Shown here piece by piece: positions 2,977 to 42,613 of a stretch of 64,000 bases of DNA. Origin of the DNA: Patescibacteria group bacterium (lineage in GTDB: Bacteria; Patescibacteriota; Patescibacteriia; UBA2591; JAQUPP01); contig JAQUPP010000001.1 of assembly GCA_028716665.1 (NCBI GenBank), positions 37,313 through 101,312 of the forward strand. Reading direction: 5' to 3'. A model generated the notes under the pieces. It did no database searches. It was not told where the DNA came from and was given only the letters and a program-made list of their open reading frames with translations. Numbering within the stretch: the stretch's first letter is position 1; every line of letters starts with the position of its first letter. The position numbers were made by a program, and so were the translations under genes.

Positions 2977-3699
2977 TTAAGAACGAGAGATTTTTTCAAA
3001 ATATTTCAAACCATTTTCGTCTTTACCGGCTTCCACAAAATCTTCAAAAACAACCGGAATAATCATTTTAACTTCTTCCAATAATTTACCCATTACTTCT
3101 CTGATTTCCCAATGAGCCGGTCGAGCAGTTCTCATTTTAAAAATATGCCGCCATTCACGAAAATTCGCTGAAACAACAATTTGAGATTTAATCGCCGTGG
3201 GCAGAATTTGTCTGGCATCTTGCGGCAACCAACCTGCCTTTCTTAATCCTCGATAAAATTCTTCCGTTTCTTGAAGCATTTCGGCCATGGACATTTCTCG
3301 GCCGTCAGCCAATTTAACTTTTTCATTTTCATCTTTATGAGCCGGAACAACGCATTTTAATTCAAATTTTTCCAAGTCCACTTCCGCGCCCGGTTTGGCA
3401 TAATCCACATAACGGGTTGATTCTTGAGAAATACCCATTATACGATGGCGAACCAATTCATGAGTCAAGCCGCGGGAACAATCATTAAATTGAACAATCA
3501 TCAAACTGTGCTCCATTACGCTTTCGTGCCCGAGTTTTAAAATCATTTTAACGAATTTTTCCGCGGTTTCCTGAGTTATTTCTTGAGCAACTGATTGATA
3601 ACAAGTCCTCCCCGCTTTTTCAATGGTTAACAACTGCGATTTTAAATTTTCTTTAGGCGTTAAAATAACAAAATTTCCGGCACTTTTAAGTATTTTCAT
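2977..3699 (-). CDS. thyX: flavin-dependent thymidylate synthase ThyX
   Basis: ThyX signature RHR...S motif (VRHRIMGISQESTRY) and length 240 aa. Confidence 0.8.
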   Translation of the reverse strand: MKILKSAGNFVILTPKENLKSQLLTIEKAGRTCYQSVAQEITQETAEKFVKMILKLGHESVMEHSLMIVQFNDCSRGLTHELVRHRIMGISQESTRYVDYAKPGAEVDLEKFELKCVVPAHKDENEKVKLADGREMSMAEMLQETEEFYRGLRKAGWLPQDARQILPTAIKSQIVVSANFREWRHIFKMRTARPAHWEIREVMGKLLEEVKMIIPVVFEDFVEAGKDENGLKYFEKISRS

Positions 3700-3921
3700 A
3701 CCAGGTAGTAGAACTTTGACAATTTTTGTCCAATCATCAAAGTTTTAAATTAATTAATTAATTAAATTATTTTAGAAAACCTTTGTTTGTTATATGAATT
3801 TTTTGTCCGACCAAAAATCAACAAAATTAAAGCTTTCAAACAGATTAAGTACGCAATATAGATATTACCAGGTAAAACTTTTTAGCTGCGAAGGACAAGT
3901 CAAAGTCCACTACCTGGCATA
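3698..3921 (-). repeat. structured repeat element copy 1 (about 224 bp) forming the thyX 5' leader
   Basis: Near-perfect terminal inverted repeats ccaggtagtagaactttgac ... gtcaaagtccactacctggcata. The thyX ATG (revcomp of 3697-3699) abuts the arm. About 90% identical to copy 2. Confidence 0.75.
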
Positions 3922-3925
3922 TTTT

Positions 3926-5044
3926 TTAAATTATATTTTTAAATGTTTTAAAAGTTTTTTCAGCGCATTTTTGCCAAGAAAATTCTTTTACCCTTTCTAA
4001 CCCTTTTTCTATCAGCACTTTTCTCAAATCTTGCTCATTAATTATTCTTTTAATCGCTTCAATCATTTGCAATGAATTTTCGGGGTTAAAATACAGAGCT
4101 GCGTCTTGAGCGACTTCGGGCAAAGAACCTTGATTTGAGGCGACAATCGGACAACCGGAGGCCATTGCTTCAAGTAAAGGGATACCGAATCCTTCATAAA
4201 AAGAAGGAAAAACAAACGCTTCTGCTCCGGCGTATAAATAAACCAAGTCTTTCGGTTCAACATAATTAATTTGACGAATTTTTTCTCCCAAAGATTTAAT
4301 TTGTGATTTCGCTTCTTGATAACCGAATCCCGGGCTTCCGGCCAAAACCAAATTTAGAATTTGGAATTTAGAATTTAGAATTTGGAGCTGCTGATAGGCG
4401 TTAATCAATCCTTTGATATTTTTCTTTTTCTCCAGCCGGCCGACAAAAAAAAGATAAGGCTTTTTAATCTGATATTTAATCAAAATTTCTTCTATTTTAT
4501 TTTTATCTTCAATCAAATTATAATTTTCACTGTATCCCAAAGGGATGACGATTATTTTATTCGGATCTGTTTTATATAAATTTATTATTTCCGTTTTTGT
4601 AAATTCCGACGGAGTGATAATTTTATCGGCATATTTGGCGGCAAAAGAATGAACCAGTGAGTAATAAATTCTCTGCCCAAAAGTATAAGCTTTTGGGAAA
4701 CGCTTGAATCCAAGATCGTGAATGGTCATTATTTTTTTAGCTCGGCAAAAAATAGGCAAACAATGAGCCGGAACAAATAAAATATCCGGCGGATTAATCA
4801 ACATTTCCCAAGATAATCTCTTCTGAGTCCAAAAATATTTCAAGGGCCAAGATAAAATTTTAGTTTTCCAGCCGGCCGGCATAATTCCCAAATCTCCTTT
4901 TAATTCTTCCGACGCGTATAAAATAAATTTATCCCCCTGAGACAGAGGGATTTTTTTTAATTCTTGAATCAAATGGTAGGAATACCATTCAACGCCTGTT
5001 TTTTGCGGGCGATTTGCCCTCGAAGCATCAATGCCGATAATCAT
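3926..5044 (-). CDS. glycosyltransferase family 4 (GT-B)
   Basis: C-terminal EX7E-like motif ...FYEGFGIPLLEAMASGCPIVASNQGSLPEV. Confidence 0.75.
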   Translation of the reverse strand: MIIGIDASRANRPQKTGVEWYSYHLIQELKKIPLSQGDKFILYASEELKGDLGIMPAGWKTKILSWPLKYFWTQKRLSWEMLINPPDILFVPAHCLPIFCRAKKIMTIHDLGFKRFPKAYTFGQRIYYSLVHSFAAKYADKIITPSEFTKTEIINLYKTDPNKIIVIPLGYSENYNLIEDKNKIEEILIKYQIKKPYLFFVGRLEKKKNIKGLINAYQQLQILNSKFQILNLVLAGSPGFGYQEAKSQIKSLGEKIRQINYVEPKDLVYLYAGAEAFVFPSFYEGFGIPLLEAMASGCPIVASNQGSLPEVAQDAALYFNPENSLQMIEAIKRIINEQDLRKVLIEKGLERVKEFSWQKCAEKTFKTFKNII

Positions 5045-6067: not shown

Positions 6068-7126
6068 TTACGCTTTTAAATTTTTTTCCTCAAGTTCAAC
6101 TTCTCTTTTTTCTTTAAAATAATCACGGATCAAAATACTGATAACTGTGGCAATCGGAACAGAAATTAACATTCCGATCGGGCCGGCCAATCTTCCGCCA
6201 ATTAATAAAACGATCAAAGCCAAGGCCGGATTAAGTCCGACAACTTTATACATTATATTTGGAGAAATTATAAGATGCCCAATTTCTTGAATAATAATAT
6301 AGAGAATTATCACCAATAAACCTAAAAGCGGTGATTGAACAAAAGCGATAATTACCGCCGGAATAGCTCCTAAAGCAAAACCTATAAATGGAATCATCTC
6401 TCCGAAGCCGGTAATAATGGCTAAAATTAAAGCGAATTTAACTTTTAAAAAGAATAAGCCGATATAAGTTAGAATACCTATAATCAAGCAAATTAAGAAT
6501 TGACCTATCGCCCATCCGCTGACTTCTTTCTGGGATAATCTCATAAAATGCTCAAAAAAATGGCGATATTTTATCGGAATTATTAAATTCAAATAATTAT
6601 AGAAAGTGTGTTTCTGAATAGACAAATAAAAAGATATTATTAGAACCATGAATAAGGAAACAATCTGACCAATAGTATTTCCCAATAAAGAAAACATATT
6701 TGTGTCTCCCAGAACTTTCTGATTTAACCATTGATTTCCTAATTTTAAAAATTGTTCTTGGACACCTGCTGGTATTTTTACTACAATTGATTGAAAAACA
6801 TTCGGAATTTGATCAATAAAAATTTTCCCTTGTTCTACAATAGTCGGCCAAACGGCAAAACTGATACCGGTTAAAATCAATAGAATAAACAAGTAGACAA
6901 TTAATGCTCCCAGCCAACGGGGTAATTTTTTTCTTTCAAAAAAATTAACCGTGGGGTTAATAATCACGGCCAAAAAAACCGCGATTAAAACCATAAAAAT
7001 AATGTCGCGGATAAAATACAAAAACCAAAAACCCAAAAGAACTAAAACAACTTTAACAACTGATAAAAAATCTATACTAAAAACATTTGTATTTTTTGAA
7101 CTTGAATTATTTTGATTTTCAAACAT
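6068..7126 (-). CDS. AI-2E family (PerM/UPF0118-like) polytopic membrane transporter
   Basis: About 8 predicted transmembrane segments, about 350 aa, Gly/Pro-rich C-terminal helices typical of AI-2E permeases. Confidence 0.5.
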   Translation of the reverse strand: MFENQNNSSSKNTNVFSIDFLSVVKVVLVLLGFWFLYFIRDIIFMVLIAVFLAVIINPTVNFFERKKLPRWLGALIVYLFILLILTGISFAVWPTIVEQGKIFIDQIPNVFQSIVVKIPAGVQEQFLKLGNQWLNQKVLGDTNMFSLLGNTIGQIVSLFMVLIISFYLSIQKHTFYNYLNLIIPIKYRHFFEHFMRLSQKEVSGWAIGQFLICLIIGILTYIGLFFLKVKFALILAIITGFGEMIPFIGFALGAIPAVIIAFVQSPLLGLLVIILYIIIQEIGHLIISPNIMYKVVGLNPALALIVLLIGGRLAGPIGMLISVPIATVISILIRDYFKEKREVELEEKNLKA

Positions 7127-7340
7127 ACCAGGTAGTAGAACTTTGACAATTTTTGTGAAATTACCAAAGTTTTAAATTATTAATTAAATTATTTTAGGAA
7201 ACCTTTTTTATTTTATGAATTTTTTGTCCGACCAAAAATCAACAAATTAAATCTTCAACGATATGTTAGATGCGCAAAATATATACCAGATAAAACTTTT
7301 TAGTTGTGAGAGGACAAGTCAAAGTCCACTACCTGGCATA
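7125..7340 (-). repeat. structured repeat element copy 2 (about 216 bp) forming the leader of the AI-2E-like gene
   Basis: Same terminal inverted repeats and internal sequence as copy 1. The gene start codon (7124-7126, revcomp) directly abuts the arm. Confidence 0.75.
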
Positions 7341-10461: not shown

Positions 10462-10561
10462 TTTTCCTCCTTTTTTTATTGAACTAATCTTAGATTATCA
10501 AAAATTAAGAATTTGTCAAGTCCCAAGATTGCCAACAAATTTTAAATAGGTATAATAAAGA

Positions 10562-10700
10562 TATGCCAGGTAGTGAAACTTTGACTTAGTCTTTTAAGGG
10601 GTTCTACCAAGCATATAAAGTAAAATTTTAATAATAAATTAACTATTTTTATAACTTTGACAGGAATAAATAACCGGTCAAAGTTCTACTACCTGGTATG
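10562..10700 (+). repeat. structured repeat element copy 3 (short form, 139 bp) forming the leader of the RmlD-like gene
   Basis: 5' arm tatgccaggtagtgaaactttgac, 3' arm gtcaaagttctactacctggtATG ending with the start codon. A TTGCCA-17-TATAAT promoter lies just upstream (10530-10554). Confidence 0.7.
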
Positions 10701-11549
10701 AAAAATAATAAACCAAGTTTTTATATTTTAGGGGCAAGCGGATTTATGGGCGGAAAATTCGTGGAATATCTAAAACAAAATAATTTTGAAGTTTCCAACG
10801 AAAGAATTGATATTACTGATTTGCCGGCTTTAAAGAAAAAATTTAAAGAAATCAAACCTGATGTGGTGATTAATTTTGCCGGCGTCAGAGCTTATCCGAA
10901 TATTGACTGGTGCGAAACTCACAAACAAGAAACAATTGCCGTAAATGTCGCGGGCGCGATTAACGTCGCTTTAGCCGCTCTGGAAGCGTCAAGTTTTATG
11001 ATTCAAATCGCTTCGGGCTGTATTTATTCCGGCACGCCGGAAACGCCTTTTAGCGAAGAAGATGAACCGAATTTTTTCGGCAGTTTTTATTCCAGAATGA
11101 GAGTCGCAATGCAAATGGCGCTTAAAGAATTGCCCGTTCTTCAATTGAGAATCAGAATGCCGATTTCCATGTATTCTCATCCGCGCAATCTGCTTAATAA
11201 AATAATTTCTTACAAAAAAGTTATTTCTTTGCCTAATTCCGTAACTTTAATTGAAGATATGTTTCCGGCTTTGGTTAAATTGGCGGAAATCAAACCGACC
11301 GGAATTTTAAATTTAGTGAATGACAATTATCTGACTCACGAACAAATGCTTAAAGCTTATCAAGAAATAGTCAATCCAAATCATCAATATGAATTAATTT
11401 CTTTGAATGAACTTTATAATATTACCAGCGCCAAACGAAGCAATTGCATTTTGTCCAATCAAAAAGCGAAAGATTTGGGAATAGAAATGCCGGCAATTGA
11501 CGAAAAACGGCTGAGAGAAATCATGGAAGTCTACAAAAAATCTTTGTAA
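10698..11549 (+). CDS. NAD(P)-dependent sugar epimerase/reductase (RmlD-like short-chain fold)
   Basis: N-terminal Rossmann motif ILGASGFMGG, 283 aa. Confidence 0.5.
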   Translation: MKNNKPSFYILGASGFMGGKFVEYLKQNNFEVSNERIDITDLPALKKKFKEIKPDVVINFAGVRAYPNIDWCETHKQETIAVNVAGAINVALAALEASSFMIQIASGCIYSGTPETPFSEEDEPNFFGSFYSRMRVAMQMALKELPVLQLRIRMPISMYSHPRNLLNKIISYKKVISLPNSVTLIEDMFPALVKLAEIKPTGILNLVNDNYLTHEQMLKAYQEIVNPNHQYELISLNELYNITSAKRSNCILSNQKAKDLGIEMPAIDEKRLREIMEVYKKSL

Positions 11550-11572
11550 ATTTTAGAAAATATAAAATATTA

Positions 11573-11600
11573 AAAGACCGTAGAAATCTACGGTCTTTTA
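11573..11600. terminator. terminator hairpin
   Basis: aaagaccgtag-aaat-ctacggtcttt followed by T-rich sequence. Confidence 0.55.
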
Positions 11601-11603
11601 ATA

Positions 11604-11675
11604 TGCCAGGGGGCAGAATCGGACTGCCAACGCAAGGATTTTCAGTCCTTCGCTCTACCACTGAGCTACCCTGGC
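11604..11675 (-). tRNA. tRNA-Phe (GAA)
   Basis: The revcomp folds as a cloverleaf with acceptor gccaggg/ccctggc, anticodon loop ctGAAaa and discriminator A. Confidence 0.85.
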
Positions 11676-11704
11676 GTAAAATTTAAACATCTTAAATATT
11701 AATA

Positions 11705-11790
11705 GTCCTTCGCTCTACCACTCCGACGCCTTTACAGGGACCGGAGTCCAGACTTTTACGTCGGGGCTGAGCTACCCTGGCGTAAATCAT
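11705..11790 (-). pseudogene. duplicated 5' half of tRNA-Phe carrying a 46-nt hairpin insertion in the D-loop
   Basis: The revcomp reads gccagggtagctcag[46-nt insert ccccgacg...cgtcggag]tggtagagcgaaggact and then stops. There is no anticodon loop or 3' half. It lies 29 nt upstream of the intact tRNA-Phe. Confidence 0.55.
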
Positions 11791-11823
11791 TTCAATATTA
11801 AAACATTGTAACATTTTAACAAG

Positions 11824-11894
11824 TGGGCGACCAAGGAATCGGACCTTGTACTCTTCCGTGTAAAGGAAACGTTTTACCATTAAACTAGTCGCCC
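11824..11894 (-). tRNA. tRNA-Val (TAC)
   Basis: Acceptor gggcgac/gtcgccc, anticodon loop ttTACac, T-arm caagg-tccgatt-ccttg. Confidence 0.8.
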
Positions 11895-11913: not shown

Positions 11914-13413
11914 TTATTCGAGAGAATAATTCGGTGGTTCTTTTGTAATAATAATATCGTGAGGGTGAGATTCGGTTTTGCCCGCCTGTGTGATTCTAAT
12001 GAAATCTGCTTTTTCGTGAAGTTCAGAAATATTTGCCGCGCCGACATATCCCATTCCACGTTTCAGTCCGCCCAAATATTGAAAAATTACTTGTTCCAAT
12101 TCTCCTTTGTAAGGTTTTAATCCTTCAACGCCTTCGGCAATAAGTTCTTTTTTTCCTGTATCCACTTGTCTATACCTTTCTCGACTGCCTTTGTTAACTT
12201 CCATTGCCCCGATAGAACCCATTCCTCTGTAGACTTTCCATTGTCTGCCATCTTTAAAAACTATTTCACCTGGCGCCTCTTTTGTTCCTGCCAGCATGCC
12301 GCCCATCATCACAGAACACGCACCTGCACCAATAGCGATAGGAATGTCTCCTGAATTATGCAACCCGCCGTCCGCGCAAACAGGAATATCAAACGCGCCA
12401 ATAGCCTTTGCGCATTTGTAAACAGCACTTACTTGAGGCGAGCCGATTCCCGCGATAACTCTTGTAGTGCAAATTGAACCCGGTCCCTGACCTACTTTTA
12501 CTCCGTCAGCACCCGCCTTGGCGAGTCGACAGGCCGATTCCGGTTCTGAGACATTACCGACTACAACATCAATTTTATAATTTCTTTTTATTTCTTTAAG
12601 TGTTTCAATAACTGATTTTGTATCTGCGTGCGCCGTACTGATTACCAACACATTAACTTTATTTTTTACCAATAAATCAATCCGTTCAAAATCATTCACG
12701 CCCACTGCCGCGGCCACGATTAACTGTCCATTTTTATCCACATTGCATCCGGTAGGATTTTTCATTATTATTCTTTGAACATCTTTAAAAACATACATCC
12801 CTGCGATTTTACCATTTTTATCCAACAACGGCAAAATCTTCTTTTTTGTTGCCATCATTATTTTATGCGCTTCTTTTAGAGAGGTCCCTTTTGGCGCCGT
12901 GATGATTTTTTTACTCATGACTTTTGCGACCGGAAGAGAAAAATCTTGGCAAAAATCAAAATCGGTCTTACTTAATATACCGATGAGTCGATTAGCTCTA
13001 TTAATAACAGGAAAGGTGCAGAAATCATATTTCTTTTCCTCTTTTTTCATGAGAATTTCCCTTACGGATTCATTTTCGTACGCGCAAATTGGTTCGTCTA
13101 TAAAGCCATTCAGATAATATTTTACCCTAGCCACTTCATCCGCTTGGTCTTTAGGAGAAAGATTTTTATGAATTACGCCAAGTCCGCCCAACAAAGCCAT
13201 TCCTATTGCCATACCGCTTTCTGTCACCGTATCCATGTCAGCGCTAACGAGAGGAATTTTTAAAAAAATATTTTTCGAAAATTTTGATTCAAGATTTACG
13301 TTGTCCGGCATAACTTCGGAATGACCCGATTTTAGGCGAACATCATCAAAAGTCAGCGCCAATCCCAGTGCTTCCATCTTCTCAAAAAATGCATCTTTTG
13401 GGAATTTTTTCAT
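11914..13413 (-). CDS. guaB: IMP dehydrogenase
   Basis: Catalytic loop [18 protein letters not shown] pair insert, 499 aa. Confidence 0.9.
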
Positions 13414-13544: not shown

Positions 13545-13638
13545 TTAATTAAAGTGCGGACGGAGGGATTCGAACCCTCGCAGGATTGCTCCCACATGCA
13601 CCTCAAGCATGCGCGTATACCAGTTCCGCCACGTCCGC
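13545..13638 (-). tRNA. tRNA-Leu (GAG), long variable arm
   Basis: Acceptor gcggacg/cgtccgc, anticodon stem catgc/gcatg with loop ttGAGgt, long variable arm, T-loop ttcgaat. Confidence 0.85.
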
Positions 13639-13640
13639 AA

Positions 13641-13910
13641 TTATTTTATCAATGTTTTTAAATATTCTTTACCACAACCAGATTTAAAATATTTTTCTCT
13701 TTGTCTCGCTTGATATCTAGAACCAACAAATTCTGTAAATATAATTTTAAAAGGGATATATCGTTTATTTGATTTAGTTTTTCCAATATTATGTTCTTTT
13801 AATCTTTTCTCCGGATTTTCTGACATCCCAACATAAATATAATTATATTTAATACTTTTTATAGCATAAACATAATAACTTTCCATAATTTTAAAATTGT
13901 AATATAACAA
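13641..13910 (-). CDS. small GIY-YIG nuclease family protein (YhbQ/UPF0213-like)
   Basis: YYVYAIKS...YIYVGMSENPEKRLKEHN matches the GIY-YIG core with conserved R, E and N. 89 aa; the real start may be the internal Met at residue 9. Confidence 0.7.
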   Translation of the reverse strand: MLYYNFKIMESYYVYAIKSIKYNYIYVGMSENPEKRLKEHNIGKTKSNKRYIPFKIIFTEFVGSRYQARQREKYFKSGCGKEYLKTLIK

Positions 13911-13966
13911 TTACATGCGCGTATACCAGTTCCGCCCTGCCTGCCGGCAGGCAGGCACGTCCGCCT
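13911..13966 (-). pseudogene. duplicated 5' fragment of tRNA-Leu (nt 1-31) with a 20-nt perfect palindrome inserted after position 9
   Basis: The revcomp reads gcggacgtg[cctgcctgccggcaggcagg]gcggaactggtatacgcgcatg. The 24 nt catgcgcgtataccagttccgcc are identical to 13607-13630. Together with the intact tRNA it flanks the GIY-YIG gene. Confidence 0.6.
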
Positions 13967-14944: not shown

Positions 14945-15707
14945 TTTTACCTCCCTGTCTGCCTGATAGGCAGACTTTTTTATTTAAAAAATCCTTTAAT
15001 TCTTTTGGCAAATCGCTTTTAAATTCTTGCCATTGATTATTTAGATCGTAAAAACCCAGATAACCGGCGTGAAGAAAAATTCTATCTAAATCGGTTTTTG
15101 CTTTGCTGTGCTGCTTGTCTCCGACAATCGGACAGCCGATTGATTGCAGATGAAGACGAATTTGATGCGTTCGACCGGTAAACGGCCTGAGTTTTAATAA
15201 AGTAAATTTTGGAAATTCTTGAACAACCTCGTATTCGGTTATCGCCGGCTTGGAAATTTTAATATTTTTTTTAGATTGAACAACGACTAATTTTCCTTTT
15301 TTTGTTCGGCCAATTGGTAATTCAATTGTTCCTTTTTTTTGCGAAGGCCGGCCGCAAACCAAAGCCAAATATTCTTTTTTTACCCGGCTATTTTTAAACT
15401 GATCAATAAAATATTCAAATGATTTTTGATTTCTGGCAATTATCATCAATCCGGAAACGTTTTGGTCCAAGCGATGAACAATCCCCGGTCTTTCACTCTC
15501 ATTAATATCTTTTATTTCAGGATAATTTTCAATTAACCAATTCGCTAAAGTATTTTCTTTTTGATGTTTGGTAGGATGCACCAATAATCCGCTCGGTTTT
15601 TCAATAATCAAATAATCCTTATCTTTAAAGATTATATTCGGTTTTAAAAAAAAGTCAACCCCCATACCAAACGGCGATATATTTTTAAAATGCGATGAAT
15701 TATTCAT
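14937..15707 (-). CDS. RluA-family pseudouridine synthase
   Basis: Catalytic motif HRLDQNVSGLMIIA and GRTHQIRLHL. Confidence 0.8.
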   Translation of the reverse strand: MNNSSHFKNISPFGMGVDFFLKPNIIFKDKDYLIIEKPSGLLVHPTKHQKENTLANWLIENYPEIKDINESERPGIVHRLDQNVSGLMIIARNQKSFEYFIDQFKNSRVKKEYLALVCGRPSQKKGTIELPIGRTKKGKLVVVQSKKNIKISKPAITEYEVVQEFPKFTLLKLRPFTGRTHQIRLHLQSIGCPIVGDKQHSKAKTDLDRIFLHAGYLGFYDLNNQWQEFKSDLPKELKDFLNKKVCLSGRQGGKNE

Positions 15708-15854
15708 TATATTTGATTAATCTGTTCTAAATTTTAAAATTTATTCTATTTTAAAAAAAGTTTAAAAATATATTACTGAGCATTTTATCACCGTTCAGGT
15801 GCGGGGGTCAATCCCCATAAAAATCATTCTAGCTAAAAAACTAATTTTTGTCAA

Positions 15855-27429: not shown

Positions 27430-27643
27430 CTCACATGAAAATTATTAGAAATATTTTGATTCTTTTTTAAATGTATATACGACCCAGAATATCTTTTAAG
27501 TATGTTTTTTATATTTTGGTGCCTTTTTTAGGAGCACCTGTTTTATACACAGACTAAATCAAATGGAAATTAATGTTTTATAAATTCTACTAATTCTTAA
27601 ACATATAATTTTCATGTGAGGGACCAAGTGCCCATTTAATATA

Positions 27644-40387: not shown

Positions 40388-42613
40388 TTAATATCCTCTT
40401 GTTTTTAACACGGCAATACTTGTTCCGCCCTTAAATTGTTTAGTATAAGCATAAAACTGACTAAGCTGCTTGCTGGAAAAACTGAAAACATTAACCTGGG
40501 GTTCCATGCCTTTTTTGGGACCGGTAATAATTTCCGCCTTTTGATCACCGTCAAAATCAGCCGTGACAAGATTAATTCCTCCATAAAATTCGCGAGAGTA
40601 AGCCAAAAATTGAAGTCTGAGTTGGAGAAATTCACTGGAAAAAACTCTCACATAAGGAGAAGCGCCCGAGGCCACACTGGCTAAAATTTCATCTTTCCCA
40701 TCACCGTCAACATCGCCTGAAGCGACATTCACGCCGCCCAAAAAAGTTTTATTAAAAGCGAAGAAATTTAATTCCATAACTCCCTGACCGTCTAAAACCC
40801 TGACATGAGGACCGCCTCCAAGACCTGCGCCGGTGATAATTTCGTCTTGACCGTCAGCATCAATATCTCCTGAAGCAATATTCACCCCGCCTTTAAAACT
40901 GGATTGATAAGCAAAAAATTCATTTTTTAAATTACCGGAAAAATCAAAAATTTTAATTTGAGTATTACTGGTCATTCCACTGGTGATAATTTCGTCTTTC
41001 CCATCACCGTCAACATCACCCGAAGCGACATTCACGCCGCCGGTAAAAGTTTTTGCATAAGCGAAAAATCCACTTTTCGGCTGGCCGTAAAGATCAAATA
41101 TTCTGACATGAGGTCCGCCGCCCGGACCTGCGCCGGTGATAATTTCGTCTTTCCCATCACCGTCAACATCACCCGAAGCGACATTCACGCCGCCGGTAAA
41201 AGTTTTTGCATAAGCGAAAAATCCACTTTTCGGCTGGCCGTAAAGATCAAATATTCTGACATGAGGTCCGCCGCCCGGACCTGCGCCGGTGATAATATAA
41301 TAAGATTGGGGCAATTCTCCGGCCTGATTAAAAGTACGTTCTATGGTTTTATAAGCATTAACCCGACCGCTGCCCAACTGACCGACTAAATTGGAATTTA
41401 AAGAATCAATATTGTCAGCCTGACTGATAATAAAACTTTGAACTTGTTTTTGAGTCAGTAGCGGGTTAACAGACCAAACTAATGCCGCCAACCCGGAAAT
41501 GACCGGCGCGGCAATGGAAGTGCCGGACCAATAACCTCCGTAATATTCTTTAAAATTTTCGTAATTTGAATTATAAACCAGCGGGCCATAAATGCGCGTT
41601 CCCGGCGCCGAGATATCAATACATTTTGAACCATAATTGGAAAAAGACGCTTTTTTATCAGCGCTGTCCGTAGCTGCTACGCCAATAATAAAATTTTCAT
41701 CATCTTCGTCCAAACAGACCGGATAATTAGGCGTGTTATTGAGATTCACCGGCTCGCCTGTTGTTTCGTTGCCACCGGCTGCCACGACAATCACTCCTCT
41801 TTGCCAAGCATTTTTTAGAGCTTCAGCTAAAAAATAACTTTTATTGGTGCCGACAAAACTTAAATTGATAACTTTTACTCCATTGTCAACCGCGTATTTA
41901 ACCGCTTGAATAACATGCTCTACTGTTCCCGACCCTTCACTGTTTAAAACTCTTAAAGACATAATTTTACTTTTAAAAGCTATACCGGCCGTACCCGCGG
42001 AATTATCTCCTGTTGCGGCAATAATGCCCGCGATTAAGGTGCCGTGATGAATGCCATTGGCGTCAAAAACTTCATCAAATTTAGGCTTTGGGTTTGGCAC
42101 ATTATTTATGAAATCCCATCCATTTATATCATCAATGTAACCGTTATGATCATTATCAATACCATCTCCTTTGATTTCATCTTTATTGGACCAAATATTA
42201 TTTTTTAAATCAGGATGATCAATGTCCACGCCTGTGTCTAAAACCGCCACCGTGATATCAGTGTTCCCTCCATGGGTTAAATCCCATGCCTGCGGTATTT
42301 GAATTTTATCCAAATACCATTGTTCAAAATAAAGCGGATCATTGGGAATATAAGCGATTTTAAATGAATAATTCGGTTCAGCCCATTCTATTTCCGATCG
42401 TTCAAGAATAATTTTTTGAAATTCTTCAATTGGCAAATCATTTGATTCGACATTATAAATTTTTGAAGAATCTTTCAATTTAATTAAAAGTTCTCCTGTT
42501 TCCGGAATAGTGGAAGAATGAGCTATTTTAGGGAAATTGAAAAAAGTTGTCATACTCAAAATAACAACTAAAAAAATAACAAATATATTTTTTTGATTAA
42601 TCAATTTCATCAA
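40388..42613 (-). CDS. secreted subtilisin-like serine protease (S8) with C-terminal FG-GAP/beta-propeller repeats
   Basis: Catalytic triad VAVLDTGVD / HGTLIAG / GTSIAAPVISG. Repeated ASGDVDGDGKDEIITGAGPGGGPHVRIFD FG-GAP-like units. Signal peptide present. Confidence 0.8.
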   Translation of the reverse strand: MMKLINQKNIFVIFLVVILSMTTFFNFPKIAHSSTIPETGELLIKLKDSSKIYNVESNDLPIEEFQKIILERSEIEWAEPNYSFKIAYIPNDPLYFEQWYLDKIQIPQAWDLTHGGNTDITVAVLDTGVDIDHPDLKNNIWSNKDEIKGDGIDNDHNGYIDDINGWDFINNVPNPKPKFDEVFDANGIHHGTLIAGIIAATGDNSAGTAGIAFKSKIMSLRVLNSEGSGTVEHVIQAVKYAVDNGVKVINLSFVGTNKSYFLAEALKNAWQRGVIVVAAGGNETTGEPVNLNNTPNYPVCLDEDDENFIIGVAATDSADKKASFSNYGSKCIDISAPGTRIYGPLVYNSNYENFKEYYGGYWSGTSIAAPVISGLAALVWSVNPLLTQKQVQSFIISQADNIDSLNSNLVGQLGSGRVNAYKTIERTFNQAGELPQSYYIITGAGPGGGPHVRIFDLYGQPKSGFFAYAKTFTGGVNVASGDVDGDGKDEIITGAGPGGGPHVRIFDLYGQPKSGFFAYAKTFTGGVNVASGDVDGDGKDEIITSGMTSNTQIKIFDFSGNLKNEFFAYQSSFKGGVNIASGDIDADGQDEIITGAGLGGGPHVRVLDGQGVMELNFFAFNKTFLGGVNVASGDVDGDGKDEILASVASGASPYVRVFSSEFLQLRLQFLAYSREFYGGINLVTADFDGDQKAEIITGPKKGMEPQVNVFSFSSKQLSQFYAYTKQFKGGTSIAVLKTRGY
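40982..41287. repeat. perfect 153-bp x 2 tandem duplication inside the subtilase FG-GAP region
   Basis: 40982-41134 is identical to 41135-41287, with a further diverged unit at about 40830-40980. It encodes a duplicated 51-aa FG-GAP unit. Confidence 0.8.

What the first reader, a model, noticed from the sequence alone, without database searches (positions are those of the whole stretch)
11604..11790. Second tRNA 5'-half duplication: tRNA-Phe fragment with a 46-nt hairpin insert in the D-loop
29 nt upstream of the intact tRNA-Phe (minus strand) lies gccagggtagctcag[ccccgacgtaaaagtctggactccggtccctgtaaaggcgtcggag]tggtagagcgaaggact. This is tRNA-Phe nt 1-31 with a 46-nt insert whose ends pair (ccgacg/cgtcgg). 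It stops at the anticodon stem.

The event has the same anatomy as the tRNA-Leu case (5' fragment copy plus palindromic or hairpin insert near the D-arm) but no cargo gene remains. That suggests a recurring tRNA-targeting insertion and decay process in this genome.

A weaker third instance is a 10-nt copy of the tRNA-Val 5' end (27625-27634) next to tRNA-Ile, flanked by a 15-bp inverted copy of the tRNA-Val leader (aattttcatgtgagg).
Basis: seen in the sequence. Interest (0 to 1): 0.55.

Follow-up and report, generated by a model that had tools for sequence, protein, structure and literature searches.

The report
Relic tRNA-Phe fragment from mobile insertion
A dead copy of the first 32 bases of a tRNA-Phe gene, interrupted by a hairpin, sits 28 bases upstream of the working gene; it is most likely the scar of small mobile insertions that repeatedly hit tRNA genes in these tiny-genome bacteria, and following it up exposed a widespread nuclease-plus-palindrome cassette that I could not find described.

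Summary
On the minus strand, nt 1-15 and 16-32 of tRNA-Phe(GAA) are repeated exactly, split in the D-loop by a 46-nt GC-rich insert. This copy lies 28 nt upstream of the intact gene, and no tRNA or Rfam family is called in it.

Comparative data show it is a dispensable relic. Two sister Patescibacteria genomes have a clean empty site. A third has the same fragment, insert and spacer, and there the insert and spacer have drifted (about 87% identity, fold not conserved).

The anatomy matches a family of small GIY-YIG cassettes I retrieved from metagenomes. In 71 of 80 loci the ORF sits beside a same-strand tRNA. In 67 of those 71 a partial tRNA copy is present. That copy is usually interrupted in the D-arm by one ultra-conserved 20-bp palindrome, CCTGCCTGCCGGCAGGCAGG, as at the window's own tRNA-Leu. 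ORF-less versions with 19-27-nt spacers also exist.

The Phe insert itself is an orphan sequence, and no nuclease gene was found beside any tRNA-Phe. The link to the cassette therefore rests on architecture only. The relic alone is ordinary decay. The cassette and palindrome system behind it appears undescribed.

The parts
11604..11675 (-). Intact tRNA-Phe(GAA), 72 nt, no encoded CCA
   Evidence: ARAGORN. Rfam tRNA 67.4 bits. 100% identical in L015, L016 and L018.
11676..11703 (-). 28-nt AT-rich spacer between the relic and the intact gene (ATTAATATTTAAGATGTTTAAATTTTAC)
   Evidence: 23 of 27 aligned bases match L018, plus one indel. No promoter-like site found.
11704..11720 (-). Relic, tRNA-Phe nt 16-32 (TGGTAGAGCGAAGGACT); ends after the second base of the anticodon loop
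   Evidence: Exact 19-nt repeat including 2 boundary bases, E = 1.3e-5. Identical in L018.
11721..11766 (-). 46-nt GC-rich insert in the D-loop of the relic; folds as a 7-bp + 4-bp hairpin; orphan sequence
   Evidence: Unique in the window. Fold -19 kcal/mol, z = -3.5. 89% identical to the 49-nt L018 version, plus indels, and the L018 version folds differently. No similarity to the other hairpin inserts. No Rfam hit. No viral-contig hit.
11767..11786 (-). Relic, tRNA-Phe nt 1-15 (11767-11781) plus 5 duplicated leader bases TTTAC (11782-11786)
   Evidence: 20-nt exact direct repeat D14. blastn-short E = 0.003 for the 15-mer.
11567..11604 (-). Intrinsic terminator that closes the tRNA-Val/tRNA-Phe transcription unit
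   Evidence: Terminator scan: 17-pair stem followed by a T run. Stem changes relative to L018 are compensatory.
11823..11894 (-). tRNA-Val(TAC), upstream neighbour. In the sister genomes this allele survives only as a 3' fragment interrupted by a palindrome.
13936..13955 (.). 20-bp perfect palindrome CCTGCCTGCCGGCAGGCAGG, splitting the tRNA-Leu 5' relic (nt 1-9 at 13956-13964; nt 10-31 at 13914-13935)
   Evidence: The same 20-mer is present in 74 of 80 GIY-YIG loci.
13641..13886 (-). 81-aa GIY-YIG nuclease gene between the tRNA-Leu relic and intact tRNA-Leu(GAG) (13554-13638); the cargo-bearing counterpart of the Phe relic
   Evidence: Pfam PF01541, E = 1.1e-14. Model pLDDT 94, nearest solved fold Slx1/UPF0213. 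97.6% nt identity to the sister genomes, against 85-95% for neighbouring genes.
27430..27633 (-). ~204-nt ORF-less insertion between tRNA-Ile and tRNA-Val(GAC), with 17-18-bp terminal inverted repeats and a 10-bp duplication of the tRNA-Val 5' end
   Evidence: Absent from L015 and L016, where the two tRNAs are 10 nt apart. Single copy, no ORF.

Best explanation
The 11704-11786 segment is a non-functional relic. An insertion or recombination event at the tRNA-Phe gene duplicated its first 32 nt and regenerated a complete gene 28 nt downstream. The old 5' part was left stranded behind its original upstream flank. That stranded copy carries a GC-rich hairpin-forming insert in the D-loop.

By architecture this is the ORF-less end state of a class of small cassettes that target tRNA genes. 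In these cassettes a minimal Slx1/YhbQ-like GIY-YIG nuclease gene sits immediately next to a tRNA, a partial tRNA copy lies on its other side, and a GC palindrome interrupts that copy. The window's own tRNA-Leu locus is the intact example.

Shown:
- the duplication;
- its dispensability (empty site in sister genomes);
- drift of the insert and spacer;
- the generality of the architecture, including ORF-less forms.

Inferred:
- that a nuclease ORF once lay at tRNA-Phe and was deleted;
- that the nuclease finds tRNA genes through DNA structure (cloverleaf, cruciform or hairpin) rather than sequence;
- that splitting the 32-nt direct repeat into 15- and 17-nt blocks slows loss by recombination, with final loss being a precise deletion between the repeats, as in L015 and L016.

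Today the relic is probably only co-transcribed spacer RNA in the tRNA-Val/tRNA-Phe operon.
For: (1) The repeats are exact and colinear, and no tRNA is called in the relic.

(2) Presence/absence polymorphism. L015 and L016 have ...AAAATCTTGG|GCCAGGG, i.e. the intact tRNA-Phe with no relic. L018 has the same upstream flank followed by the relic, a 49-nt insert, a 27-nt spacer and the intact gene. The tree is ((L015,L016),L018) with the window outside. The filled state is therefore probably ancestral, and the empty one a precise deletion.

(3) Decay. Insert: 41 of 46 bases match, plus 3 gap columns. Spacer: 23 of 27 match. The L018 insert has a different minimum-energy fold.

(4) Same anatomy with cargo at tRNA-Leu in all four genomes.

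(5) General pattern in the 80 metagenome loci:
- 71 of 80 GIY-YIG loci have a tRNA within 400 nt, always on the same strand;
- 59 are downstream, with a median gap of 10 nt;
- away from the ORFs there are only 4 tRNAs in 182 kb;
- 67 of the 71 have a partial tRNA copy;
- 29 of 37 interrupting inserts lie in the D-arm;
- fragments end around nt 27-48.
The Phe relic (insert at 15/16, end at 32) falls inside these ranges.

(6) ORF-less analogues with the same spacing:
- L023, 22-nt spacer;
- L027, 24 nt;
- L028, 27 nt;
- L065, 19 nt;
- L006, fetched through IMPDH and so unbiased, has two tRNA-Ala 5' fragments with 21-nt D-loop hairpins and no ORF.

(7) Other relics in the same tRNA cluster: a tRNA-Val(tac) 3' fragment with a T-loop palindrome in L015, L016 and L018.

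(8) The nuclease fold is Slx1/UPF0213-like, with no DNA-binding domain.
Against: - No GIY-YIG or other ORF lies beside tRNA-Phe in any of the four genomes. None of the 80 cassette loci involves tRNA-Phe.
- The 46-nt insert is not the conserved 20-bp palindrome. It has no significant similarity to any other hairpin insert (all p > 0.06) and no second copy anywhere I could search.
- The spacer shows no convincing similarity to the ends of the cassette ORF (by eye).
- The tRNA-derived 32 nt show 0 changes between the window and L018, although the neighbouring sequence differs by about 12% (P about 0.015). This could reflect gene conversion from the adjacent gene, but it could also reflect constraint.
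- Insertion versus deletion polarity rests on parsimony over only four genomes.
Confidence: 0.6

Rival explanations
1. Purely local accident. Replication slippage or a repair error tandemly duplicated about 60 nt (leader plus tRNA nt 1-32), and an unrelated piece of filler DNA later landed in the non-functional copy. No mobile element or nuclease was involved.
For: - No ORF is associated with tRNA-Phe.
- The insert is an orphan with no family.
- In the window the repeat extends 5 nt into the leader, as a simple tandem duplication would.
Against: - In L018 the relic keeps the native upstream flank, while the intact copy has a different, new leader. The event is therefore not a clean tandem duplication.
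- The combination of a D-loop insert, a fragment ending at the anticodon loop and a spacer of 20-30 nt recurs at many unrelated tRNAs.
- At least three other insertion events lie at tRNA genes within the same few kilobases of these genomes.
Confidence: 0.22
2. The relic is functional. One version is an RNA leader element that affects processing, stability or folding of the tRNA-Val/tRNA-Phe precursor. Another is a DNA structure (the D-stem extended by the hairpin) kept for regulation or as a recombination barrier.
For: - The 32 tRNA-derived bases are unchanged between the window and L018, while their neighbours drift.
- The window insert folds better than all 200 shuffles and stacks on the D-stem.
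- The relic lies inside an operon closed by a covarying terminator.
Against: - It is absent from L015 and L016, whose tRNA-Phe is identical.
- The fold is not conserved in L018: the outer stem is broken by an indel.
- No Rfam family matches.
- Identity of the tRNA-derived blocks is readily explained by gene conversion from the intact gene 28 nt away.
Confidence: 0.08
3. Remnant att-type repeat of an integrase-mediated genomic island that integrated into tRNA-Phe and was later almost entirely deleted.
For: - A partial tRNA duplication that regenerates an intact gene is the hallmark of such integration.
- The break at the anticodon loop is a known crossover sublocation for some integrase subfamilies (from my own knowledge of the tRNA integration-site literature).
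Against: - It is the 5' part, not the 3' part, that is duplicated.
- Only 28 nt lie between the repeats, and no integrase gene is adjacent.
- This model does not explain the D-loop insert.
- The parallel loci carry GIY-YIG genes, not integrases.
Confidence: 0.05
4. An unusual functional tRNA: intron-containing, split or permuted, using the upstream 5' piece.
For: Patescibacteria do carry tRNA introns, which are group I introns in the anticodon loop (PMC13011429).
Against: - ARAGORN, which allows introns, and Rfam call nothing in the relic.
- The window has no group I intron hit.
- No 3' half other than that of the already complete gene exists.
- 46 nt is far too short for a group I intron.
Confidence: 0.01

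Closest known systems
Free-standing GIY-YIG homing endonuclease genes in tRNA clusters (phage T4 SegB; PMC2330249)
   Same: A GIY-YIG nuclease gene is embedded among tRNA genes, and its activity drives preferential inheritance of the tRNA region. This gives a precedent for tRNA genes as landing sites for selfish nuclease genes.
   Different: - SegB is a larger, phage-borne protein, and its paper describes it as a site-specific endonuclease.
- No partial tRNA duplication or conserved palindrome is described for it.
- The proteins here are 78-91-aa catalytic domains only, chromosomal, and closer in fold to Slx1/UPF0213 than to I-TevI.
- No match in GenBank phage records.
Mobile endonuclease ORFs in fungal and chytrid mitochondrial genomes that bring a replacement gene end and strand the old one; also mobile GC clusters and double-hairpin elements in AT-rich mitochondrial DNA (from my own knowledge; fungal mitogenome papers surfaced)
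   Same: - A compact AT-rich genome.
- An endonuclease ORF insertion accompanied by partial duplication of the target gene.
- Short GC-rich palindromic mini-inserts that are polymorphic between close relatives.
   Different: - Those are organellar, usually hit protein genes and 3' ends, and have different endonuclease architectures.
- Here the targets are bacterial tRNA genes.
- One exact 20-mer is shared across phyla.
tRNA-targeting integrative elements (tyrosine-integrase islands and prophages)
   Same: Insertion into a tRNA gene with a duplicated tRNA segment, so that a functional gene is regenerated and a fragment is left at the other end.
   Different: - Those normally duplicate the 3' part, need an integrase and carry kilobases of cargo.
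- Here the 5' part is duplicated, the 'island' is 28 nt (or a 246-nt ORF at tRNA-Leu), and there is no integrase.
Slx1 / UPF0213 (YhbQ, BH0048) structure-specific GIY-YIG nucleases
   Same: Best structural matches of the 81-aa protein: 7cq2_A, E = 8.6e-4, TM 0.70; and 1zg2. This is a minimal GIY-YIG core with no separate DNA-binding domain.
   Different: Slx1 works with Slx4 in eukaryotic DNA repair. No mobile behaviour, tRNA association or cognate palindrome is known for these proteins.
REP/REPIN and MITE-type short palindromic repeats
   Same: Short hairpin-forming DNA that inserts at many sites and is polymorphic between strains. The 204-nt element at tRNA-Val(gac) has classic MITE features (terminal inverted repeats plus a 10-bp target duplication).
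   Different: - The Phe insert is single-copy with no detectable family.
- The 20-bp palindrome is far shorter than typical REP or MITE elements, shows no target duplication at tRNA sites, and is conserved across phyla rather than being species-specific.

Membership tests
Functional tRNA gene (including intron-containing) | A complete cloverleaf detectable by tRNA finders or covariance models | tested here: not met
   ARAGORN and Rfam RF00005 call only 11604-11675. Nothing is called in 11704-11786, even at E <= 10.
Functional tRNA gene (including intron-containing) | A 3' half (anticodon 3' strand, T-arm, acceptor 3' strand) available to the 5' piece | tested here: not met
   The only match to tRNA-Phe nt 33-72 in the window, L015 and L018 is the intact gene itself.
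Group I intron in tRNA (as described for Patescibacteria, PMC13011429) | Group I ribozyme core inserted in the anticodon loop | tested here: not met
   No group I intron hit in the window or locally. The insert is 46 nt long and lies in the D-loop of a truncated copy.
Small GIY-YIG / tRNA cassette (family defined here from L023-L102 and window tRNA-Leu) | Partial copy of the 5' part of the tRNA, ending near the anticodon arm, on the same strand upstream of an intact copy | tested here: met
   The relic covers nt 1-32. Family fragments end at about nt 27-48.
Small GIY-YIG / tRNA cassette (family defined here from L023-L102 and window tRNA-Leu) | A hairpin-forming GC-rich insert interrupting the stranded copy, typically in the D-arm | tested here: met
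   The insert lies at 15/16 in the D-loop. 29 of 37 family inserts lie at position 26 or lower.
Small GIY-YIG / tRNA cassette (family defined here from L023-L102 and window tRNA-Leu) | The insert is the conserved 20-bp palindrome CCTGCCTGCCGGCAGGCAGG or a tandem of it | tested here: not met
   No significant similarity (p = 0.93-0.96 against shuffles).
Small GIY-YIG / tRNA cassette (family defined here from L023-L102 and window tRNA-Leu) | A 78-91-aa GIY-YIG ORF adjacent to the tRNA | tested here: not met
   No such ORF lies next to tRNA-Phe in the window, L015, L016 or L018. ORF-less fragment-plus-tRNA units do occur within family loci.
Integrase-mediated island in a tRNA gene | An integrase gene and cargo between direct repeats of the tRNA 3' part | tested here: not met
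   The repeats are of the 5' part and are 28 nt apart, with no ORF between them.
MITE / IS-type transposon insertion | Terminal inverted repeats and a short target-site duplication flanking the insert; multiple copies in the genome | tested here: inconclusive
   - The Phe insert has subterminal pairing (CCGACG/CGTCGG) and a 2-nt AG boundary ambiguity, but it is single-copy in everything I could search.
- The whole genome was not available.
- The separate 204-nt element at 27430-27633 does meet the TIR and target-duplication criteria.
GIY-YIG nuclease superfamily (for the tRNA-Leu cargo ORF used as the comparator) | GIY-YIG catalytic domain by profile and by fold | tested here: met
   PF01541, E = 1.1e-14. 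AlphaFold pLDDT 94. Foldseek hits to Slx1, UPF0213, UvrC N-terminal domain and I-TevI catalytic domains. Nuclease activity was not tested.

The most novel reading that the evidence does not exclude
Hairpin-interrupted tRNA fragments such as this one are footprints of an undescribed, widespread class of selfish elements in Patescibacteria and the Bacteroidota/Ignavibacteria group.

In this reading, a minimal Slx1-like GIY-YIG nuclease with no sequence-reading domain targets tRNA genes through the branched or hairpin DNA structures they can adopt. It travels with a replacement tRNA segment, so the host gene is regenerated. It is coupled to an ultra-conserved 20-bp palindrome, which also occurs free-standing in high-GC viral contigs and acts as its cleavage or recombination site. 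The tRNA-Phe relic would be a decayed member carrying a different hairpin.
Probability: 0.35. Interest if true: 0.8.

Novelty: new variant of a known kind. Interest (0 to 1): 0.6.

Why it matters
On its own the relic is a pseudogene scar. It still matters for annotation: such fragments, and spurious ORFs such as 11692-11880, should not be called genes.

Its wider value is as an entry point. It shows that tRNA clusters in these minimal genomes are hot spots of insertion, allele replacement and decay.

It also led to a compact and very regular system: a GIY-YIG gene of about 80 aa, an exact 20-bp palindrome, and a partial tRNA duplication. I found no description of this system in the searchable literature.

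If the nuclease recognises DNA structure rather than sequence, this would be a new way for a selfish gene to home to universally conserved targets. It would also offer a simple, testable system: one small protein and one 20-bp site.

Tried and rejected
- **Intron-containing or split tRNA:** rejected.
- **Assembly artefact:** rejected, because the relic is present in independent assemblies and, in diverged form, in L018.
- **IMPDH-based search of the genome collection for synteny:** It did supply two unbiased examples, L004 and L006.
- **Epimerase homologue at 81% identity (L019-L022):** no synteny. The 97% homologue had no DNA on file.
- **The insert as a member of a repeat family:** no other copy in the window, in 167 fetched loci or in viral contigs. 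No similarity to pal, pal2, or the L004 and L006 hairpins.
- **'Each GIY-YIG subfamily has its own cognate palindrome':** rejected for TCCGCCAGCTGGCGGA. Family #2 loci elsewhere lack it, and L018 has the cassette without it.
- **'The palindrome always travels with GIY-YIG':** rejected. Of 42 exact copies in viral contigs, only 1 has a GIY-YIG gene nearby.
- **The spacer as a remnant of the ORF's 3' end:** only a shared AT-rich 9-mer, which is not convincing (inspection).
- **A promoter in the spacer:** none found by the consensus scan.
- **Literature:** no paper contains the 20-mer, and none describes GIY-YIG with partial tRNA duplication in bacteria.
- **GenBank phages and plasmids:** no homologue of the 81-aa protein at E <= 1e-6.
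- **NCBIfam:** no specific family.
Full report
**1. The observation**

On the minus strand the window reads, 5' to 3': tRNA-Val(TAC) at 11894-11823; a 42-nt spacer; GCCAGGGTAGCTCAG; a 46-nt insert; TGGTAGAGCGAAGGACT; a 28-nt AT-rich spacer; the complete tRNA-Phe(GAA) at 11675-11604; then a strong terminator hairpin.

The two flanking blocks are exact copies of gene nt 1-15 and 16-32. Five leader bases (TTTAC) are repeated as well. The copy stops after the second base of the anticodon loop, just before the anticodon. The spacer is 28 nt, not 29.

The insert is GC-rich in a genome of 35% GC. As a single strand it folds into a 7-bp outer stem and a 4-bp inner stem (-19 kcal/mol, z = -3.5), which stack on the D-stem. 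It is not a true DNA palindrome.

ARAGORN and Rfam see no tRNA or any other RNA family in the fragment, even at permissive thresholds.

The sequence is identical in an NCBI MAG contig and in a Logan contig from a separate run, so it is not an assembly artefact.

**2. Source and relatives**

The window matches a Patescibacteria MAG, GCA_028690995.1. Homologues of the adjacent epimerase led to three sister loci:
- L015 and L016, which are 99.7% identical to each other;
- L018, which is 92-97% identical to L015.

All three are about 90% identical to the window.

In the sisters the four tRNAs Leu, Ala, Val and Phe form one contiguous cluster followed by a Lactamase_B_2 gene. In the window an IMPDH gene sits between tRNA-Ala and tRNA-Val, and the lactamase gene is absent.

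**3. The relic is polymorphic and decaying**

L015 and L016 carry a clean empty site: the upstream flank AAAATCTTGG runs straight into an intact tRNA-Phe. L018 has that same flank followed by the fragment, a 49-nt version of the insert, a 27-nt spacer and the intact gene.

With the window as outgroup, the filled state is most simply ancestral. The empty state is then a precise deletion between the direct repeats.

Between the window and L018:
- the insert differs at 5 of 46 aligned positions, plus 3 gap columns;
- the spacer differs at 4 of 27 positions, plus one gap;
- the L018 insert has lost the outer stem and folds differently;
- the 32 tRNA-derived bases are unchanged, which has P of about 0.015 at the local rate of about 12%.

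I attribute the unchanged 32 bases to gene conversion from the intact gene 28 nt away. Constraint is not excluded.

Loss of the relic in two genomes whose tRNA-Phe is identical argues against an essential function.

**4. The neighbourhood shows the same process again and again**

(a) *tRNA-Leu(GAG).* In all four genomes, nt 1-9 are followed by the perfect 20-bp palindrome CCTGCCTGCCGGCAGGCAGG, then nt 10-31, a 27-nt leader, an 81-aa GIY-YIG ORF, and 2 nt later the intact tRNA. The ORF is 97.6% identical between genomes, whereas neighbouring genes are 85-95% identical. This hints at recent exchange or gene conversion.

(b) *tRNA-Val(TAC) in the sisters.* The sisters carry a different tRNA-Val(TAC) allele. 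It is followed by a 3' fragment of the window-type allele, whose T-loop is replaced by the palindrome TCCGCCAGCTGGCGGA.

(c) *A second GIY-YIG gene (89 aa).* In the sisters it is inserted into the 5' end of the pseudouridine-synthase gene, stranding about 26 original codons. The window holds the empty site. L015 has a GC palindrome at the new gene start that L018 lacks.

(d) *The 'third instance'.* This is a real ~204-nt insertion in the window between tRNA-Ile and tRNA-Val(GAC). It has 17-18-bp terminal inverted repeats and a 10-bp duplication of the tRNA 5' end. It is absent from L015 and L016. This is a MITE-like event and differs in kind from the Phe and Leu cases.

**5. A general architecture**

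Using an alignment of homologues of the 81-aa protein, I fetched 80 metagenome loci with 31-54% GC.

- 71 of the 80 have a tRNA within 400 nt, always on the same strand.
- 59 of these tRNAs are downstream, at a median of 10 nt from the stop codon.
- 5 of the 9 exceptions are contigs that end within about 100 nt after the ORF.
- Away from the ORFs there are only 4 tRNAs in 182 kb.
- 67 of the 71 have a partial copy of that tRNA on the other side of the ORF.

Of the 37 inserts that interrupt these copies:
- 32 are exactly 20 nt, and the rest are 22-44 nt;
- nearly all are the same palindrome as in the window, or tandem copies of it;
- they occur in tRNA-Leu, tRNA-Arg and tRNA-Asn at varying positions;
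- 29 of the 37 lie in the D-arm;
- none has a target duplication.

The palindrome occurs 95 times in 74 of the loci, 48 times exactly. Of these copies, 56 lie within 50 nt upstream of the ORF start, and only 2 lie more than 500 nt away.

The protein model is confident (pLDDT 94). It is closest to the Slx1 nuclease domain and to UPF0213/YhbQ rather than to I-TevI. That makes it a bare catalytic core of the structure-specific type.

**6. Direct analogues of the Phe relic**

Several loci contain a palindrome-interrupted 5' fragment a short distance upstream of an intact tRNA, with no ORF between them: L023 (22 nt), L027 (24 nt), L028 (27 nt) and L065 (19 nt).

L027 shows the fullest picture. The resident tRNA-Arg is split into a 5' piece (nt 1-43, two palindromes) and a 3' piece (nt 27-73, palindrome in the T-loop). 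These flank an inserted unit that carries an intact tRNA-Arg plus the nuclease gene.

Two loci were fetched through IMPDH and are therefore unbiased with respect to GIY-YIG:
- L004 has a related GIY-YIG ORF, two tRNA-Leu 5' fragments separated by GC-rich hairpin inserts of other sequences, and a 3' fragment preceded by a 42-nt hairpin.
- L006 has two tRNA-Ala 5' fragments, each with a 21-nt D-loop hairpin whose arms differ but still pair, and no ORF at all.

Hairpins of several sequences and sizes therefore occupy stranded tRNA pieces. A 46-nt orphan hairpin is within the range seen.

**7. What the relic most likely is and how it arose**

Best reading (confidence about 0.6): an insertion or recombination event at tRNA-Phe brought, or created, a second copy of nt 1-32 behind a new AT-rich leader. 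This regenerated the gene and stranded the old 5' part. The stranded part acquired a GC-rich hairpin in its D-loop. Any cargo ORF was later deleted. The insert and spacer have since drifted. In one lineage, recombination between the repeats removed the whole relic.

- Shown: the duplication, the polymorphism, the decay, and the architectural match.
- Inferred: the former presence of a nuclease gene, the targeting mechanism, and any role for the hairpin.

My preferred mechanistic hypothesis has three parts. First, the Slx1-like nucleases recognise branched or hairpin DNA, either tDNA cloverleaves or a cruciform extruded from the palindrome. Second, the resulting breaks are repaired from cassette copies through tRNA homology. 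Third, splitting a repeat of about 30 nt into two blocks of about 15 nt lowers the rate of recombinational loss. None of this has been tested.

**8. Against, and rivals**

Against the best reading:
- No ORF is found at any tRNA-Phe, and none of the 80 loci involves tRNA-Phe.
- The insert is unrelated to the conserved palindrome and has no other copy.

A purely local duplication followed by a filler insertion therefore remains plausible (about 0.2).

A functional leader is unlikely, given the loss in sister genomes and the non-conserved fold (about 0.08). An integrase att remnant (about 0.05) and an unusual functional tRNA (about 0.01) fit poorly.

**9. Two hypotheses about the palindromes were tested and failed**

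- The palindrome TCCGCCAGCTGGCGGA is not a cognate site of the 89-aa family. Other members of that family sit upstream of mraZ, murJ-like and prgI-like genes without it. Instead they share a conserved 5' UTR whose ACCCTGTTAAATAA is the inverted repeat of the ORF's 3' end.
- The 20-bp palindrome does not always travel with GIY-YIG. Of 42 exact copies in viral contigs of mostly 60-68% GC, only one is next to a GIY-YIG gene (L134, a tRNA-Lys fragment) and one interrupts a tRNA-Met (L127). Several of the others are flanked by 7-14-bp direct repeats.

**10. Novelty**

Nuclease genes in tRNA clusters are known (T4 SegB, PMC2330249). From my own knowledge, so are endonuclease ORFs that duplicate part of their target, and mobile GC hairpins in AT-rich mitochondrial genomes.

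I found no paper that contains the 20-mer or describes this bacterial arrangement. There is no specific NCBIfam model and no homologue in GenBank phages or plasmids.

The Phe relic itself is an ordinary decay product. The system it points to is a new variant of free-standing nuclease cassettes and possibly something more.

Scores: interest 0.6; novelty, new variant of a known kind.

Noticed in passing
L023-L102 (80 metagenome loci); window 13554-13964: A very regular cassette: a 78-81-aa GIY-YIG ORF immediately next to a same-strand tRNA (71 of 80 loci), a partial copy of that tRNA on the other side (67 of 71), and the exact 20-bp palindrome CCTGCCTGCCGGCAGGCAGG interrupting the copy (present in 74 of 80 loci). 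It is found in contigs of 31-54% GC. Sources name the homologues as Patescibacteria, Bacteroidota, Ignavibacteriales and Chlorobi. No paper contains the 20-mer.
   Followed up: yes
L103-L137 (viral contigs), e.g. L105:1660, L111:8396, L121:3391, L127:2284, L134:515: The same exact 20-bp palindrome occurs 42 times in IMG/VR contigs of mostly 60-68% GC, and all but one copy have no GIY-YIG gene within 600 nt (only two have either a GIY-YIG gene or a tRNA). There are up to 4 copies per stretch of DNA (L123; 6 on the contig it comes from). Some copies are flanked by 7-14-bp direct repeats or sit within iteron-like repeats. In L127 it interrupts the variable loop of a tRNA-Met. What spreads or maintains it there is unexplained.
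   Followed up: partly
L015:8136-8203, also L016 and L018 (between tRNA-Val(tac) and tRNA-Phe): The sister genomes carry a different tRNA-Val(TAC) allele, about 70% identical to the window's. Behind it lies a 3' fragment of the window-type allele whose T-loop is replaced by the palindrome TCCGCCAGCTGGCGGA. This is a tRNA allele replacement that left a relic.
   Followed up: partly
L015:10470-11075 and L018:4640-5232; empty site in the window near 15690-15710: A second GIY-YIG gene (89 aa) is inserted inside the 5' end of the pseudouridine-synthase gene in the sister genomes, stranding about 26 original codons and supplying a new start. The window lacks it. L015 has a GC palindrome (TCCGCCATCTGGCGGA) in the new N-terminal coding region that L018 lacks.
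   Followed up: yes
L138-L167: The 89-aa GIY-YIG family is very large (2874 homologues at E <= 1e-8, mostly 75-90% identical). It sits directly upstream, on the same strand, of unrelated protein genes (prgI-like, mraZ, murJ-like). It has a conserved 5' UTR of about 100 nt, and the UTR's ACCCTGTTAAATAA is the inverted repeat of TTATTTAACAGGGT at the ORF's 3' end.
   Followed up: partly
window 27430-27633: An ORF-less insertion of about 204 nt between tRNA-Ile and tRNA-Val(GAC), with 17-18-bp terminal inverted repeats (CCTCACATGAAAATTAT) and a 10-bp duplication of the tRNA-Val 5' end. It is absent from L015 and L016 and single-copy in the window.
   Followed up: yes
window 11914-13413, compared with L015:6967-7938: The tRNA cluster is a rearrangement point. 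The window has IMPDH between tRNA-Ala and tRNA-Val and no Lactamase_B_2 gene. The sisters have a contiguous Leu-Ala-Val-Phe cluster followed by Lactamase_B_2 and no IMPDH there.
   Followed up: no
window 13641-13886: The GIY-YIG ORF is 97.6% identical in nucleotides to the sister genomes, whereas adjacent genes are 85-95% identical (rplS 92%, gmk 85-89%). This suggests recent exchange or gene conversion, or unusual constraint.
   Followed up: partly
window 14957-14975: A GC hairpin, GTCTGCCTGATAGGCAGAC, shares the CTGCCT/AGGCAG arms of the 20-bp palindrome. It lies in the last codons of the pseudouridine-synthase gene, just upstream of the gmk ribosome-binding site. It may be a decayed palindrome copy inside coding sequence.
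   Followed up: no
L004:4800-5570 and L006:6300-6680: Other Patescibacteria loci, fetched through IMPDH, show the same theme with different hairpins. L004 has a 91-aa GIY-YIG ORF, two tRNA-Leu 5' fragments with CCTGCCCGCC-type inserts, and a 3' fragment behind a 42-nt hairpin. L006 has two tRNA-Ala 5' fragments, each with a 21-nt D-loop hairpin (AGATGCTCTGGGAGAGCATCT and GAGTCCTCTGGGAGAGGACTC) whose arms covary, and no ORF.
   Followed up: partly
window 3686-3938, 7124-7217, 10539-10716: A dispersed intergenic repeat of about 100-240 nt (75-86% identity) shows up in BLAST comparisons between the window and the related loci. Its nature was not examined.
   Followed up: no
window 41111-41129 and 41264-41282: Two identical 19-nt GC hairpins (AGGTCCGCCGCCCGGACCT) lie 153 nt apart. 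Their context was not examined.
   Followed up: no
window 11692-11880: A 62-aa ORF runs through tRNA-Val, the relic and the insert. It is almost certainly spurious and should not be annotated as a gene.
   Followed up: no
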